Translations under genes and position numbers: made by a program
Notes under the pieces: model-generated
Told to the model about the DNA's origin: nothing
Databases searched by the model: none
Seen by the model: the letters and a program-made list of their open reading frames with translations, nothing else
Shown here: piece after piece, positions 2,641-5,352 of the stretch
Layout of the letters: each line of letters begins with the position of its first letter
Numbering within the stretch: the first letter of the stretch is position 1
IMG/VR virus record: IMGVR_UViG_3300002098_000039
Reading direction: 5' to 3' (one strand)
Source: a virus
DNA length: 59,133 nt

Positions 2641-2940
2641 ATGACCAAATTAACGCATGATCCAGATAGGCATTTAGCGGAAGAATTGCGGATTATAATT
2701 CAGATGTTCGATAACAGTCATGCGACTGGCGATCCTTTGACTGCAAGTGAGTTTTTAGTCCAAATCCCCAGAAAAAAATTTGAGCGTATTTGCAGACTGG
2801 CACTGAAATATTTGCAGCAACCTCATTTGTATGCCTTTGGCCCAATATCCACCACTACGATTGATCGTAAAACTGGCGAGTTCATACATACCGAGGAATA
2901 CCCAAGCGAGTATAGTGTTACTGAGGTTAATCCAAAATAG
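2641..2940 (+). CDS. Hypothetical protein
   Basis: ORF convergent with the integrase; the 3' ends overlap by 14 nt. Confidence 0.5.
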   Translation: MTKLTHDPDRHLAEELRIIIQMFDNSHATGDPLTASEFLVQIPRKKFERICRLALKYLQQPHLYAFGPISTTTIDRKTGEFIHTEEYPSEYSVTEVNPK

Positions 2941-3769
2941 AGCGTAGATGCTCGGTATCTTCGCCTAAGTGTTGGTAGACAGTAGCCAACATATTACCGT
3001 TTACGTGACCCATGACCTCTGCGATCTCGATATGGCCGAATTTGGCTTTAAGCTTACGCTGGGCAAAACCGTGACGCGCATCATACATGCAAAGTTTCAG
3101 TTTAGTAAGTTCGGACAGCTTGGCCATACGGCTGCATAGCGCGTATTTCGTCCACGCTTCGTTGCGCGTATTACGGAATACTTTGCCATCAGCATTCTTG
3201 CCCATCCAGCGCTGGAGTATCTCCGTCGCTGTGGCGTTGAGAATGATCCTGCGCGAACGTCTTTTTCCTTTCGACTCTTCCTTTGGGAAAACGATAAACC
3301 CTCTGTCGATAGCTACATGCCTGTGCTCGATGTGGCGTATCTCCTGTGGGCGTGCGCCTGTGTTCCACGCGAAAACCAACACATCACGAAACGGATCTGT
3401 CGGCGGTATGTGCTCTAGGATGAGATCGTAGTCTTCAGGCTTCATGTAGGTATTGCGGCGTTGCGCCGTGGCTTTCTTCATTTTTTTAATAGGATTACCC
3501 TCGCCATAGCCCATACTTTCGGCCCAGTTGAAAATGCGCTTAATAGTTACAACAGCGCCACCGCGATAGGTACTACCCCAGTCCTTACCGTGGCTGTCGA
3601 TCCACTCCTGCACATGGTAGGGCTTGAGGTCATACGCTGGCGTGTCTCCGATACCCGCATAAGCACACGCCATATCAATGTAATTTTTGTACCATGCGTA
3701 GGTGCGTTCAGCCTGATGGTTGAAGCACCAGTCCAGATATTTTCCTGATAATTCTTTGAAAGTCAGCAT
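2927..3769 (-). CDS. int: Tyrosine recombinase / phage integrase
   Basis: Catalytic signature TGARPQE (Arg), KGKRRSRR hairpin, ARHGFAQR (His-x-x-Arg), MGHVN (His) and VYQH (Tyr). ATG at 3769 with a GGGGAAA SD is preferred over the TTG at 3805 used by the ORF track. Confidence 0.85.
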   Translation of the reverse strand: MLTFKELSGKYLDWCFNHQAERTYAWYKNYIDMACAYAGIGDTPAYDLKPYHVQEWIDSHGKDWGSTYRGGAVVTIKRIFNWAESMGYGEGNPIKKMKKATAQRRNTYMKPEDYDLILEHIPPTDPFRDVLVFAWNTGARPQEIRHIEHRHVAIDRGFIVFPKEESKGKRRSRRIILNATATEILQRWMGKNADGKVFRNTRNEAWTKYALCSRMAKLSELTKLKLCMYDARHGFAQRKLKAKFGHIEIAEVMGHVNGNMLATVYQHLGEDTEHLRSILD

Positions 3770-3809
3770 TGTAATTTTCCCCAAAATAGTTATTGACTCA
3801 ACCAATCAA

Positions 3810-3859: not shown

Positions 3860-4012
3860 ATGAAAAATGTTGAGGAACGGGCGGTGTATAAAGTGCAGGC
3901 GCATTTAAACCCGCAAGATTTTATCGCTTTGGAAAAATACTGTGAGAAGAAGAAGAAACCAATCAGCTCCGTGGTGAGAGATCTCATCAAAGAGCATTTA
4001 GCAACCCGTTAG
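3860..4012 (+). CDS. Small ribbon-helix-helix-like DNA-binding protein (50 aa), divergent from int; candidate excision/lysogeny regulator
   Basis: Hand-translated MKNVEERAVYKVQAHLNPQDFIALEKYCEKKKKPISSVVRDLIKEHLATR. Its beta-alpha-alpha pattern resembles CopG/Arc. Confidence 0.45.
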   Translation: MKNVEERAVYKVQAHLNPQDFIALEKYCEKKKKPISSVVRDLIKEHLATR

Positions 4013-4038: not shown

Positions 4039-4293
4039 ATGGAAAGCGGGAAAAACTATAGCCCTTGCGAACACGGGCCTAAAGGCACAGTCAATTTCTT
4101 TCCGCGTAATGACGGAGCTATTGAGCGCGTTGAAGCGAGAACCAATTCTGTCGTCATTAGCTATGTTGAAGATACCGACGATGAAGGCGAAAAATATCTT
4201 CGCCGGTTCGTATGGGTGGAATGTAAAGACCAACATCTTAAGGATGATCTGCTGGTAAAAGCACGAGAAATTATAGCTAAGATCAATGAATAG
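4039..4293 (+). CDS. Hypothetical protein
   Basis: ORF with ATG. Confidence 0.5.
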   Translation: MESGKNYSPCEHGPKGTVNFFPRNDGAIERVEARTNSVVISYVEDTDDEGEKYLRRFVWVECKDQHLKDDLLVKAREIIAKINE

Positions 4294-4311: not shown

Positions 4312-5292
4312 ATGGCAGCTTATTACAACGAATTCAAACCAGAAGCCGCGCACATGCTTCGCCATCTTATTAAGGACGGGCTTATTGCTGATGGCGAAGT
4401 CGATGAAAGGAGTATTGTAGATGTTAGAGCAGACGACATTCGGGGCTTCGACCAGTGCCACTTCTTCGCAGGAATCGGCGGATGGTCAGTTGCACTTAGG
4501 CTTGCCGGATGGCCTGATGGCAGGGAAGTCTGGACAGGAAGCTGCCCCTGCCAGCCCTTCAGTTCAGCGGGGCGGCAAAAAGGCAAAGCAGATGAACGCC
4601 ATCTTTGGCCCGAATGGGTCCGCCTCATCCGCGAGCTACGCCCTGCAACAGTCTTTGGAGAGCAGGTTGAAAGCGCAATTGCCCACGGGTGGCTTGACGA
4701 TGTTTACGATGATATGGAAGGACAAGGCTACGCCGTTGGAGCGGCGGTATTGCCAGCTTGCGCTGTCGGCAAGCCGCACCAGCGAAAAAGATTGTGGTTT
4801 GTGGCTCAGTCCGAGAGCGAACGAGATAGTAGAACCGTTTGGGCAGGGGGCAGCGAGATTGGGAGATCGTCGATCGACGACTGCAACGAGCTTGGGAGAG
4901 CAAGCAACTGCGGCACTATGGGCGACTCCGAACACGATGGACAACCTAGCCGACAGATCGCAGGAAGCGAAGGACAGGCAATTCTCAACCACGCGCAAGG
5001 GACGGACAGCACCGGCGAATTTACGGGAGCAAGTGAACCCGTCGATGTGGCCAACGCCGACATCACGCGACCACAAGGATGGGAGCTTCACACCGAATGT
5101 GGAAGTGAACGGGATGCTGGGCAGGATGGTTTGGAATGGCTCCAATGCCCCGATGGAAAAGCAAGGCCAGTTAAACCCGGAATTCGTCTGCTGGCTCATG
5201 GGGTACAGCACCGCACACCTGTCCTCCATGCTTTTGGCAATGCAATCGTACCGGAAGTTGCGGCGAGGTTTATCCGAGCTTACTGTGGATGA
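4312..5292 (+). CDS. DNA (cytosine-5)-methyltransferase
   Basis: Motif I FFAGIGGW, motif IV PCQPFS, motif VI FGEQV, motif VIII QRKRLWFVA and motif X GNAIVPEVA, all in this frame. Confidence 0.85.
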   Translation: MAAYYNEFKPEAAHMLRHLIKDGLIADGEVDERSIVDVRADDIRGFDQCHFFAGIGGWSVALRLAGWPDGREVWTGSCPCQPFSSAGRQKGKADERHLWPEWVRLIRELRPATVFGEQVESAIAHGWLDDVYDDMEGQGYAVGAAVLPACAVGKPHQRKRLWFVAQSESERDSRTVWAGGSEIGRSSIDDCNELGRASNCGTMGDSEHDGQPSRQIAGSEGQAILNHAQGTDSTGEFTGASEPVDVANADITRPQGWELHTECGSERDAGQDGLEWLQCPDGKARPVKPGIRLLAHGVQHRTPVLHAFGNAIVPEVAARFIRAYCG

Positions 5293-5302
5293 TTTAATAT
5301 GA
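4421..5302 (+). CDS. Overprinted ORF (293 codons) in the +1 frame of the methyltransferase gene; W-x-[ST]-P repeat protein of unknown function
   Basis: Own SD AAGGAG (4407-4412) 8 nt before the ATG. Conserved-looking motifs SLESRLKAQL, WKDKATP, SASRTS, WLSPRA, WATPNT, WPTPTSRDHKDG and QLNPEFVCWLMGY. Confidence 0.45.
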   Translation: MLEQTTFGASTSATSSQESADGQLHLGLPDGLMAGKSGQEAAPASPSVQRGGKKAKQMNAIFGPNGSASSASYALQQSLESRLKAQLPTGGLTMFTMIWKDKATPLERRYCQLALSASRTSEKDCGLWLSPRANEIVEPFGQGAARLGDRRSTTATSLGEQATAALWATPNTMDNLADRSQEAKDRQFSTTRKGRTAPANLREQVNPSMWPTPTSRDHKDGSFTPNVEVNGMLGRMVWNGSNAPMEKQGQLNPEFVCWLMGYSTAHLSSMLLAMQSYRKLRRGLSELTVDDLI

Positions 5303-5352
5303 ATACAACCAGATAAACACATCGGACTTATAGATTAACAGAGGGAAATAAA

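What the first reader, a model, noticed from the sequence alone, without database searches (positions are those of the whole stretch)
4312..5302. Two conserved-looking proteins encoded in overlapping frames across nearly the whole C5-methyltransferase gene
**Frame 1 (4312-5292).** This frame has all the C5-MTase catalytic motifs: FFAGIGGW, PCQPFS, FGEQV, QRKRLWFVA and GNAIVPEVA. The 120 or so codons between motifs VIII and X read as low-complexity Ser/Glu/Gly/Asp/Arg sequence.

**Frame +1 (4421-5302).** This 293-codon frame has its own SD, AAGGAG at 4407-4412, 8 nt before the ATG. Over the same nucleotides it encodes sequence with strong, repeated motifs:
- SLESRLKAQL...WKDKATP...SASRTS
- three W-x-[ST]-P units (WLSPRA, WATPNT, WPTPTSRDHKDG)
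- QLNPEFVCWLMGY near the C-terminus

From memory these resemble conserved prophage and phage proteins, and the target-recognition or motif-IX-like regions of other phage methylases. That recollection needs a search to confirm.

**Scale.** The two ORFs overlap for 872 nt, which is very unlikely by chance. An antisense ORF (4636-5322) is also open, which suggests strong multi-frame constraint or compositional bias.

**Possible explanations.**
- Genuine dual coding: an MTase plus a second protein, perhaps a specificity or partner subunit.
- An MTase whose recognition domain is reached by frame changes.
- Compensating assembly errors.
Basis: partly seen in the sequence, partly recalled or inferred. 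Interest (0 to 1): 0.8.

Follow-up and report, generated by a model that had tools for sequence, protein, structure and literature searches.

The report
Two-protein methylase in overlapping frames
One phage gene is read in two frames: frame A encodes the catalytic body of a DNA cytosine methylase and frame B probably its DNA-recognition partner, a layout shown experimentally in 1995 for M.EcoHK31I and found here to be very common in phages, where gene callers usually miss B.

Summary
- ORF A (4312-5292) and ORF B (4421-5302, +1 frame) overlap for 872 nt.
- Both frames are open in about 66 of 70 related viral loci and 47 of 57 prophage loci. The third frame is not kept open.

**Selection alternates between the frames.**
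- A is constrained over motifs I-VIII and motif X.
- B is constrained over its N-core, its W-x-T-P modules and a motif-IX-like helix.
- A's middle, predicted disordered, and B's first ~72 residues are passengers that are only kept free of stops.

**Other evidence.**
- A's synonymous sites are frozen where B is conserved: Gly296 is GGG in 66/66 loci.
- B's ATG has a Shine-Dalgarno signal.
- In mycobacteriophage Kristoff, the B-like part and motif X lie in one chain (gp76), which overlaps gp77 (motifs I-VIII).

**Best explanation.** This is a two-polypeptide C5-methyltransferase. Alpha (A) is the large catalytic domain. Beta (B), nested in the +1 frame, supplies the small recognition domain.

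**Precedent.** M.EcoHK31I has this architecture, and both of its chains are required. The gene is therefore a new member of a known kind. Assembly error and chance are excluded. A double frameshift is unlikely.

**Apparently undescribed.** The size of the family (33,251 cluster representatives) and the location of recognition in beta.

The parts
4312..5292 (+). ORF A (alpha): C5-cytosine methyltransferase large-domain chain, 326 aa plus stop
   Evidence: PF00145 E 2.5e-21 and phrog_363 E 6e-74. More than 8000 homologues. AF2 pLDDT is 90-98 for residues 1-170 and 76-93 for 270-326. Foldseek matches M.HhaI and M.HaeIII at E 2e-9.
4312..4806 (+). A residues 1-165: catalytic core with motifs I (4462-4485), IV (4546-4563), VI (4654-4668) and VIII (4780-4806). 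A-frame purifying selection.
   Evidence: A codon position 3 is the most variable: 0.47-0.69 against 0.13-0.38 for positions 1 and 2. phmmer aligns residues 72-165 to M.HhaI 73-170.
4807..5118 (+). A residues 166-269: low-complexity passenger linker occupying the usual TRD position. Kept open but not conserved.
   Evidence: pLDDT 35-50 and no secondary structure for residues 178-266. A position 1, which is B position 3, is the most variable. The A frame is open in 58/59 loci although P(open) is 0.066.
5119..5289 (+). A residues 270-326: conserved hairpin (WLQCPDGKARPVKPG, 5137-5181) and motif X helix (FGNAIVPEVA, 5233-5262)
   Evidence: Nearly invariant columns W276, C279, D281, G282, K283, R285, G309 and N310. 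The last ~20 codons show an A-frame selection pattern. The A profile C-terminus aligns to Kristoff gp76 185-209 at E 0.02.
4407..4412 (+). Shine-Dalgarno AAGGAG for ORF B, built from A's Arg-Ser codons AGG AGT
   Evidence: Anti-SD duplex energy is -8.2 kcal/mol in the window. Family mean is -5.4 against -2.7 for internal ATG controls, Mann-Whitney P 4e-14. AGG AGY recurs in loci whose B ATG lies at -47.
4421..5302 (+). ORF B (beta): 293 aa plus stop, +1 frame, starting 109 nt inside A and ending 10 nt after A's stop
   Evidence: phrog_1008 E 1.6e-24. 581 homologues. 33,251 cluster representatives at E<=1e-3. Annotated as a separate CDS in PhiXhv-5, K1ind3 and Paenibacillus phage Leyra.
4421..4636 (+). 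B residues 1-72: passenger leader overlapping A motifs I-IV. Kept open, with its sequence dictated by A.
   Evidence: B position 2 is the most variable. A codon heterozygosity is 0.56 here against 0.60 upstream of B. AF2 shows it disordered, pLDDT about 50. The leader is open in 59/59 loci, joint log10 P = -19.
4637..4810 (+). B residues 73-130: N-core (helix LQQSLESRL, hairpin ..MIWKDKATP..QLALSASRTS) overlapping A motifs VI-VIII. Doubly constrained.
   Evidence: A synonymous sites are frozen: V118 GTT 63/66, L134 NTG 58/59, E135 GAA 58/63, V163 GTG 57/63. AF2 gives helix 70-86 and hairpin 96-116 with block-mean pLDDT 65-86. The segment from B residue 91 onward aligns to Kristoff gp76 from residue 14.
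4811..5155 (+). B residues 131-245: variable region with W-x-T/S-P modules (WLSP 4802, WATP 4919, WPTP 5048). B-frame purifying selection. Candidate target-recognition part.
   Evidence: B position 3 is the most variable. The number of modules varies from 1 to about 5 among relatives. The region aligns to the LPTP modules of gp76.
5156..5221 (+). B residues 246-267: EKQGQLNPEFVCWLMGYSTAHL, a motif-IX-like helix. Doubly constrained with A 282-303.
   Evidence: It is the only hhalign hit to M.HhaI, at residues 269-290 (GKTRKLHPRECARVMGYPDSYK), E 0.13. W258, L259 and G261 are invariant. A's G296 is GGG in 66/66, L293 NTG in 64/64 and P288 CCC in 56/57.
5222..5302 (+). B residues 268-293 plus stop: passenger tail overlapping A's motif X
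   Evidence: B position 2 is the most variable (0.59), the A-frame selection pattern.
4636..5322 (-). Antisense ORF, 228 aa. A by-product and not part of the system.
   Evidence: No Pfam or PHROG hit. It lies in register with A's codons, so it is open wherever A lacks TTA, CTA and TCA. Such a run reaches 200 codons or more in only 17% of related loci.

Best explanation
**Model.** The 4312-5302 locus encodes a two-polypeptide DNA (cytosine-5) methyltransferase of the M.EcoHK31I type.

**Alpha (frame A).** It is the large catalytic domain.
- Motifs I-VIII are joined to a conserved hairpin and the motif X helix.
- The join is a disordered low-complexity spacer of about 100 residues. It sits where a single-chain enzyme has its small domain.

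**Beta (frame B).**
- It starts at its own SD and ATG inside alpha and is read in the +1 frame.
- It first runs through a ~72-residue leader whose sequence is merely the by-product of alpha's motifs I-IV.
- It then encodes an N-core (helix plus hairpin), a variable set of W-x-T-P modules and a motif-IX-like helix.
- Together these are the equivalent of the small domain (target recognition plus motif IX).

**Inferred function.** The two chains are inferred to assemble into the active enzyme. The likely role is to protect phage DNA from host restriction.

**Shown here.**
- Both ORFs are kept open by selection.
- Purifying selection alternates between the frames.
- B has translation-initiation signals.
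- A's middle is a passenger.
- The B-like region and A's motif X are contiguous in one chain in a related phage system.

**Inferred, not shown.**
- Separate translation of B in vivo.
- Physical association of A with B.
- DNA sequence recognition by B.
For: **(1) Conservation of the layout.**
- Both frames are open over 750-1100 nt in about 66/70 viral loci and 47/57 prophage loci from many phyla.
- The third frame is open for only 12-150 codons.

**(2) Stop avoidance.**
- There are 0 B-frame stops in 15,434 codons after B's ATG, against 6.56 per 100 codons just upstream.
- Synonymous shuffles give P(open) of 0.24 and 0.066, while the observed counts are 59/59 and 58/59 open.
- The third frame shows no stop avoidance.

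**(3) Codon-phase diversity switches A -> B -> A.**

**(4) A's synonymous sites are frozen where B is conserved.**
- G296 is GGG in 66/66 loci.
- V118 is GTT in 63/66.
- L293 is NTG in 64/64.
- E135 is GAA in 58/63.

**(5) SD enrichment before B's first ATG.** Mean energy is -5.4 against -2.7 kcal/mol, P 4e-14.

**(6) Structure predictions.**
- The A model has a confident large domain (residues 1-170 and 270-326) and a disordered stretch at 178-266. It matches M.HhaI and M.HaeIII.
- B's leader is predicted disordered.

**(7) Link to a single-chain layout.**
- The B profile aligns to mycobacteriophage Kristoff gp76 residues 14-176 at E 7e-5.
- A's motif X aligns to gp76 185-209 at E 0.02.
- gp77, in the other frame, carries motifs I-VIII and stops after VIII.

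**(8) Motif IX.** B 246-267 aligns to M.HhaI motif IX.

**(9) Experimental precedent.**
- M.EcoHK31I beta is encoded entirely within alpha in another frame.
- Both chains are needed for activity.
- Beta's first 42 residues are dispensable in vitro.
- Silently removing beta's start codons abolishes methylation (PMC2836561; PMC3404938).
Against: - There is no expression, proteomic or methylation data for this locus or its close relatives.
- Homology to M.EcoHK31I itself could not be tested, because its sequence was not at hand.
- The B model is poor (pLDDT 64, pTM 0.32) and has no fold match in the PDB.
- Scans of A(N)+B(mid)+A(C) chimeras did not recover motifs IX-X in Pfam, PDB or PHROGs.
- The literature places the TRD of M.EcoHK31I in alpha. 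Here the evidence places the constrained variable region in beta.
- The position of B's first ATG varies among loci (-35 to -95 nt from motif I), so the true start is not pinned down.
Confidence: 0.8

Rival explanations
1. One conventional single-chain methyltransferase is made by two programmed frame changes. The ribosome shifts +1 near motif VIII (about 4806) and -1 after WLMGY (about 5206-5220), joining A(N), B(mid) and A(C).
For: - The pattern of purifying selection is exactly A -> B -> A.
- The order I-VIII, variable region, IX, X is the canonical one.
- In Kristoff gp76 the B-like part and motif X lie in one frame only 8 residues apart.
- Two loci (L045, L137) carry in-frame A-to-B junctions.
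Against: - It does not explain why A's roughly 100-codon passenger middle and B's roughly 130 upstream codons stay free of stops in 58-59 of 59 loci while the third frame does not.
- It does not explain why an SD and ATG precede B.
- I saw no slippery site at either junction in the window. The junction sequence (A's motif VIII) differs among relatives, but no systematic scan was run.
- Two efficient shifts in one gene have no precedent that I know of.
- In M.EcoHK31I the two chains work when expressed from separate plasmids.
Confidence: 0.06
2. B is an accessory protein unrelated to methyl transfer, for example a regulator or an anti-defence factor. It was overprinted on the tolerant variable region of the methylase, and A works alone.
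For: - B has no Pfam, NCBIfam or PDB sequence match, and its fold is not recognisable.
- The variable region of C5-methyltransferases is the part most tolerant of sequence change.
Against: - A's variable region is unconstrained and predicted disordered, so A alone lacks any candidate recognition domain.
- B carries a motif-IX-like helix.
- B is homologous to gp76, which continues in frame into motif X. It therefore derives from methyltransferase sequence and did not arise de novo.
- The M.EcoHK31I precedent.
Confidence: 0.1
3. Artefact: compensating assembly errors or compositional bias leave a second frame open by chance.
For: - The window is a metagenomic contig.
- An antisense ORF is also open.
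Against: - The same two-frame layout occurs in isolate phage genomes: epsilon15, K1ind3, Leyra, PhiXhv-5, Cr-LKS3 and XAP3.
- It also occurs in more than 100 metagenomic and prophage loci.
- The third frame shows no stop avoidance.
- The antisense ORF is not conserved.
Confidence: 0.01

Closest known systems
M.EcoHK31I (YGGCCR C5-methyltransferase of E. coli; Lee, Kam & Shaw 1995, as described in PMC2836561 and PMC3404938)
   Same: - Beta is encoded entirely within alpha in a different reading frame.
[quoted passage not shown]
- Beta's N-terminus is dispensable, which parallels the passenger leader found here.
- Both chains are required.
   Different: - It is part of a restriction-modification system. 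This gene looks like a phage orphan methylase, and I did not look for a nearby restriction enzyme.
- From memory, alpha is 309 aa and beta 176 aa. Here the sizes are 326 and 293 aa.
- The literature assigns the TRD to alpha. Here alpha's variable region is an unconstrained, disordered passenger, and the constrained variable modules are in beta.
- Sequence homology was not tested.
Mycobacteriophage 'DNA methylase' gene pairs (e.g. Kristoff gp77/gp76)
   Same: - A +1-frame second ORF starts inside the first, over motifs VI-VIII.
- gp76 is homologous to B (E 7e-5): N-core, (L/W)PTP modules and FSEWMMGWPEGW.
   Different: - gp77 stops just after motif VIII, so the overlap is only about 60 codons.
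- Motif X is on gp76, not on the first chain.
M.AquI alpha/beta (Karreman & de Waard 1990; Pinarbasi et al. 2002, cited in PMC3404938)
   Same: A natural two-subunit C5-methyltransferase split within the variable region.
   Different: - Alpha carries motifs I-VIII plus part of the variable region. Beta carries the rest plus motifs IX and X.
- The genes are not nested along their whole length.
Lambda Rz/Rz1 spanin genes
   Same: One gene is embedded in the +1 frame of another, and the two products are subunits of one complex (my own knowledge; also noted in PMC9409062).
   Different: - The proteins are unrelated, and Rz1 is short.
- Here the embedded ORF spans about 90% of the outer gene, and constraint alternates between the frames.
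Out-of-frame HNH insertions in actinophage methylases (ShiLan domain, PMC11855218) and synthetic alternate-frame insertion (bioRxiv 10.1101/2024.11.07.622342)
   Same: A functional sequence is read in an alternate frame, while the host frame reads through it as a stop-free, unstructured loop.
   Different: Those are mobile or engineered inserts. Here the alternate-frame product is an integral part of the enzyme.

Membership tests
C5 cytosine DNA methyltransferase (PF00145), chain A | Catalytic motifs I (FxGxG), IV (PCQ), VI (ENV-like) and VIII (QxRxR) in one chain | tested here: met
   FFAGIGGW, PCQPFS, FGEQV and QRKRLWFVA. PF00145 scores 76.9 bits against a cut-off of 22. phmmer to M.HhaI gives E 9e-11.
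C5 cytosine DNA methyltransferase (PF00145), chain A | A structured small domain (TRD plus motif IX) between motifs VIII and X in the same chain | tested here: not met
   A 178-266 has pLDDT 35-50 and no secondary structure. It shows no A-frame constraint. The Pfam match covers only residues 73-170.
M.EcoHK31I-type nested two-polypeptide C5-methyltransferase | Second ORF encoded within the first in another reading frame on the same strand | tested here: met
   B (4421-5302) lies in the +1 frame of A (4312-5292). It starts inside A and ends 10 nt after A's stop. The layout is conserved in more than 100 loci.
M.EcoHK31I-type nested two-polypeptide C5-methyltransferase | Alpha carries motifs I-VIII and X | tested here: met
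   Motif positions. The C-terminal helices pack in the AF2 model. Motif X aligns to gp76 185-209.
M.EcoHK31I-type nested two-polypeptide C5-methyltransferase | Beta carries motif IX | tested here: inconclusive
   hhalign aligns B 246-267 to M.HhaI 269-290 at only E 0.13. The pattern L-N-P-x-F-x-x-W-L-M-G-Y-P resembles L-H-P-R-E-C-A-R-V-M-G-Y-P. Pfam and PDB profile searches were negative.
M.EcoHK31I-type nested two-polypeptide C5-methyltransferase | Both polypeptides are made and both are required for methylation | not testable with these tools
   Only indirect evidence is available: ORF maintenance, SD signal and synonymous-site constraint.
M.EcoHK31I-type nested two-polypeptide C5-methyltransferase | Sequence homology to M.EcoHK31I alpha and beta | not tested
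M.AquI / mycobacteriophage gp77-gp76 type split methyltransferase | The first chain ends after motif VIII, and motif X is on the second chain | tested here: not met
   In the window A reads through to motif X, and B ends without it. The feature is met in Kristoff.
Programmed ribosomal frameshift gene | The zero frame closes soon after the shift site, the alternate frame opens only near it, and the slippery site is conserved | tested here: not met
   Both frames stay open for about 290 codons. I noticed no slippery heptamer in the window, but I ran no systematic scan.
De novo overprinted gene | The alternate-frame product has no homologues encoded in an ordinary non-overlapping frame | tested here: not met
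   The B-like region of gp76 lies mostly outside the gp77 overlap and continues in frame into motif X.

The most novel reading that the evidence does not exclude
**Recognition sits in beta.** In this very large phage and prophage family the real target-recognition apparatus would lie in the hidden beta chain, as a variable number (1 to about 5) of W-x-T-P modules. Alpha's 'variable region' would be only a stop-free spacer.

**What would follow.**
- The textbook description of M.EcoHK31I-type enzymes, with the TRD in alpha, would need revising.
- Tens of thousands of annotated 'DNA cytosine methyltransferase' genes would be incomplete enzymes without an unannotated partner.
- The modules may confer multispecificity, as in the Bacillus phage methylases.

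**Inserts in the beta frame.** The beta frame may also carry out-of-frame homing endonuclease inserts (as in L168). That would answer how such 'hidden' endonucleases get translated.
Probability: 0.45. Interest if true: 0.7.

Novelty: new member of a known kind. Interest (0 to 1): 0.6.

Why it matters
**Annotation.**
- Gene callers and most annotations keep only frame A. There are more than 8000 A hits but only hundreds of called B proteins in the same database.
- Methylase specificity predictions, REBASE-style assignments and heterologous expression of these phage enzymes may therefore fail or mislead if beta is ignored.

**Overlapping-gene biology.**
- The locus is an unusually clean, deeply conserved example of long same-strand dual coding in dsDNA phages.
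- Constraint is handed from one frame to the other and back.
- It is a natural counterpart of engineered alternate-frame insertion, and a good test case for methods that detect overlapping genes.

**Enzyme mechanism.** If beta carries recognition, swapping modules in one frame while the other frame only needs to stay open would be a cheap way for phages to evolve new anti-restriction specificities.

Tried and rejected
- **Chimera scans.** I scanned A(N)+B(mid)+A(C) chimeras against Pfam, PDB sequences and PHROGs, hoping that motifs IX-X would be picked up as one unit. There was no gain over A alone: 79 against 76.9 bits, and no C-terminal match.
- **B against solved structures.** The B profile found no PDB sequence at E<=10. 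Foldseek with the B model gave no match better than E 1.7, as expected for a pLDDT 64 model.
- **Single-chain relatives.** I looked for proteins combining PF00145 with a B-like region. None of the top 120 hits nor the 10 longest of 150 representatives has any Pfam domain. Only two indel-type fusions turned up, L045 and L137.
- **Close relatives for a dN/dS analysis.** None exists in E. coli genomes or phages at megablast level. I used codon-phase diversity and synonymous-site heterozygosity across divergent loci instead.
- **M.EcoHK31I sequence.** The 1995 paper is not held, the 2009 paper has no supplement held as text, and plasmid and protein searches returned no named entry.
- **'Mte8-like'.** The label on K1ind3 ORF29 may be a UniProt-style mnemonic for an E. 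coli methylase entry. That is my guess and is unverified.
- **Literature.** Searches for a description of this phage-wide dual coding found none.
- **Antisense ORF.** Rejected as functional.
Full report
**1. Observation**

- The window holds two same-strand ORFs. A is 4312-5292 (326 aa). B is 4421-5302 (293 aa) in the +1 frame. They overlap for 872 nt.
- A matches PF00145, but only over residues 73-170. It matches phrog_363 over its full length at E 6e-74.
- B has no Pfam or NCBIfam match. It matches phrog_1008 at E 1.6e-24.
- The antisense ORF 4636-5322 has no hits.

**2. The layout recurs widely**

There are no close DNA relatives in E. coli genomes or phages. Distant relatives show the same two-frame layout.

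| Phage | What is seen |
|---|---|
| Xanthomonas phage PhiXhv-5 | Both ORFs annotated as CDS |
| Cylindrospermopsis phage Cr-LKS3 | Only B annotated, A open |
| Salmonella phage epsilon15 gp41 | B unannotated |
| Xanthomonas phage XAP3 | Both frames open |
| E. coli phage K1ind3 | ORF30 and ORF29 ('Mte8-like') |
| Paenibacillus larvae phage Leyra | gp61 and gp62 |

- B has 581 homologues in the 5.8-billion protein set, none with a Pfam domain.
- A has more than 8000 homologues.
- A B profile finds 33,251 cluster representatives at E<=1e-3, of which 7,525 are at E<=1e-30.
- Among 80 IMG/VR loci recovered with the B profile, both frames are open over 750-1100 nt in about 66 of 70 usable loci. 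The third frame is open for only 12-150 codons.
- In bacterial genomes, 47 of 57 prophage loci have both ORFs. They come from Alpha- and Gammaproteobacteria, Acidobacteriota, Planctomycetota, Verrucomicrobiota, Bacteroidota, Cyanobacteria and Desulfovibrio.
- Assembly error and chance are therefore excluded.

**3. Both ORFs are maintained by selection**

- Inside A but upstream of B's ATG, the B frame has 6.56 stops per 100 codons, and 52 of 59 loci have at least one. From B's ATG to its WLMG motif there are none in 15,434 codons.
- I permuted synonymous codons within each locus. This test is conservative, because the codon pool is already depleted of stop-making codons.
  - Mean P(open) is 0.24 for B across A's N-terminal half. 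The observed count is 59/59 open.
  - Mean P(open) is 0.066 for A across the middle. The observed count is 58/59 open.
  - The third frame has 5.2 stops against 5.05 expected.
- B's leader alone is open in 59/59 loci, with a joint log10 P of -19.

**4. Constraint alternates between the frames**

Codon-phase nucleotide diversity over 66 unique loci gives this pattern.

| Region | Most variable position | Frame under selection |
|---|---|---|
| Start to motif VIII | A position 3 | A |
| W-x-T-P region through LNPEFVCWLMGY | B position 3 (= A position 1) | B |
| Last ~20 codons (FGNAIVPEVA) | A position 3 | A |

- B's first ~72 residues and its tail are passengers. So is A's middle.
- Where both proteins are conserved, A's synonymous sites are frozen in the codon that B needs:
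  - V118 is GTT in 63/66 loci.
  - L134 is NTG in 58/59.
  - E135 is GAA in 58/63.
  - V163 is GTG in 57/63.
  - P288 is CCC in 56/57.
  - L293 is NTG in 64/64.
  - G296 is GGG in 66/66.
- Mean codon heterozygosity falls along the gene:

| Region | Mean codon heterozygosity |
|---|---|
| Upstream of B | 0.60 |
| B leader | 0.56 |
| B N-core | 0.46 |
| C-terminal doubly constrained stretch | 0.36 |

**5. B has its own start signals**

- B's first ATG lies at one of a few positions 35-95 nt before motif I. It is made from A's Asp codons (GAT followed by G).
- Anti-SD pairing upstream averages -5.4 kcal/mol, against -2.7 for background and for internal ATG controls (P about 4e-14). In the window it is -8.2.
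- In loci that share the window's start position, A's Arg-Ser is usually coded AGG AGY, or CGG AGC in two loci. Both spell GGAG.

**6. Structure**

- AF2 on A with 110 homologues gives three zones:
  - residues 1-170 are confident (pLDDT 90-98);
  - residues 178-266 are unstructured (pLDDT 35-50);
  - the C-terminal hairpin and helices are confident.
- Foldseek matches M.HhaI and M.HaeIII over about 195 columns, about the size of the large domain.
- AF2 on B gives a disordered leader (1-69), a helix (70-86), a hairpin (96-116) and scattered confident helices. Overall confidence is low, pLDDT 64. There is no PDB fold or sequence match.

**7. What B is**

- hhalign of the B profile against M.HhaI gives a single hit: B 246-267 (EKQGQLNPEFVCWLMGYSTAHL) on HhaI 269-290 (GKTRKLHPRECARVMGYPDSYK), which is motif IX. 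The E-value is 0.13.
- Stronger evidence comes from mycobacteriophage Kristoff.
  - gp77 carries motifs I-VIII and stops just after VIII.
  - gp76 starts 60 codons earlier in the +1 frame.
  - The B profile aligns to gp76 14-176 at E 7e-5. The match covers the N-core hairpin, the LPTP modules and FSEWMMGWPEGW.
  - A's C-terminal motif X aligns to gp76 185-209 at E 0.02.
- So the pieces that lie in two frames here are consecutive in one chain there. B derives from methyltransferase sequence and was not overprinted de novo.
- In solved C5-methyltransferases the large domain holds most of the conserved motifs, including X. The small domain holds the variable region and motif IX (PMC3404938).
- Here, A corresponds to the large domain and B to the small one.

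**8. Known precedent**

- M.EcoHK31I consists of two polypeptides. [quoted passage not shown] - The two chains reconstitute activity from separate plasmids.
- Beta's first 42 residues are dispensable in vitro.
- Silent removal of beta's start codons abolishes methylation (PMC2836561; PMC3404938).
- This is the architecture found here, and the dispensable N-terminus parallels the passenger leader.
- M.AquI and the mycobacteriophage pairs are the sister arrangement, with motif X on the second chain.
- I could not obtain the M.EcoHK31I sequence, so homology remains untested.
- I found no paper describing the phage-wide family, the alternation of constraint, or a recognition role for beta.

**9. 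Rival explanations**

- *Double programmed frameshift.* It fits the selection pattern. It does not explain stop avoidance in the passenger segments or the SD signal, and I saw no slippery site.
- *Unrelated overprinted accessory protein.* This is contradicted by the gp76 homology and by A's lack of any constrained recognition region.
- *Artefact.* Excluded.

**10. Verdict**

- The finding is real, and its first interpretation is right.
- It is a new member of a known but obscure kind, the nested alpha/beta C5-methyltransferases.
- Three points add interest:
  - the family is huge and largely unannotated;
  - the evidence places the constrained variable region in beta rather than alpha;
  - the locus is an exceptionally clear natural case of alternate-frame domain encoding.

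Noticed in passing
L168:1380-2918 (contig carrying P0111): A ~190-codon insertion sits between A's motif VI and the following WLDEV segment. It is stop-free in both frames. In frame A it reads as junk. In frame B it reads as a Cys-rich, endonuclease-like domain that is part of the 455-aa B protein, with no Pfam hit. This resembles the 'hidden out-of-frame HNH' of the ShiLan methylase (PMC11855218) and suggests such inserts could be translated as part of the beta ORF.
   Followed up: partly
L084:1497-1560 (Pseudomonas phage PMG1): Frame A is broken near its N-terminus by an indel in a CGATCGATCGATCG repeat, while B is intact. B is the ORF annotated there as 'DNA methyltransferase'. This could be a sequencing error, a pseudogene or a slippage-prone tract.
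   Followed up: partly
L169:1138-2131 (Mycobacterium phage Kristoff gp77/gp76). Many other mycobacteriophage records list two 'DNA methylase' CDS under the match.: This is the sister architecture. The first chain stops after motif VIII. The +1-frame second chain overlaps it by about 60 codons and carries the B-like region plus motifs IX and X.
   Followed up: partly
L045:1342-2256 and L137:1811-2893: Two loci have A's N-terminal half fused in frame to B's C-terminal part (LNPxFxxWLMG) and lack motif X. They could be natural indel variants or assembly errors.
   Followed up: no
window 4636-5322 (- strand): A 228-aa antisense ORF lies in register with A's codons. It is open wherever A lacks TTA, CTA and TCA codons. 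It is not conserved in relatives and has no homologues.
   Followed up: yes
window 2927-3805 (-), 3860-4012 (+), 4039-4293 (+): Upstream of the methylase lie an ORF that reads like a tyrosine recombinase or integrase, and two small ORFs. I judged this by eye and ran no search. Together with the PHROG hits it suggests a temperate phage. P0121, identical to A, is recorded on a JGI contig of 59,133 bp, the window's length.
   Followed up: no
L087:940-1737 (E. coli phage K1ind3 ORF29): The B-type ORF is labelled 'putative Mte8-like protein'. The name looks like a UniProt-style mnemonic for an E. coli modification methylase entry and might point to the characterised beta chain. This is unverified.
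   Followed up: partly
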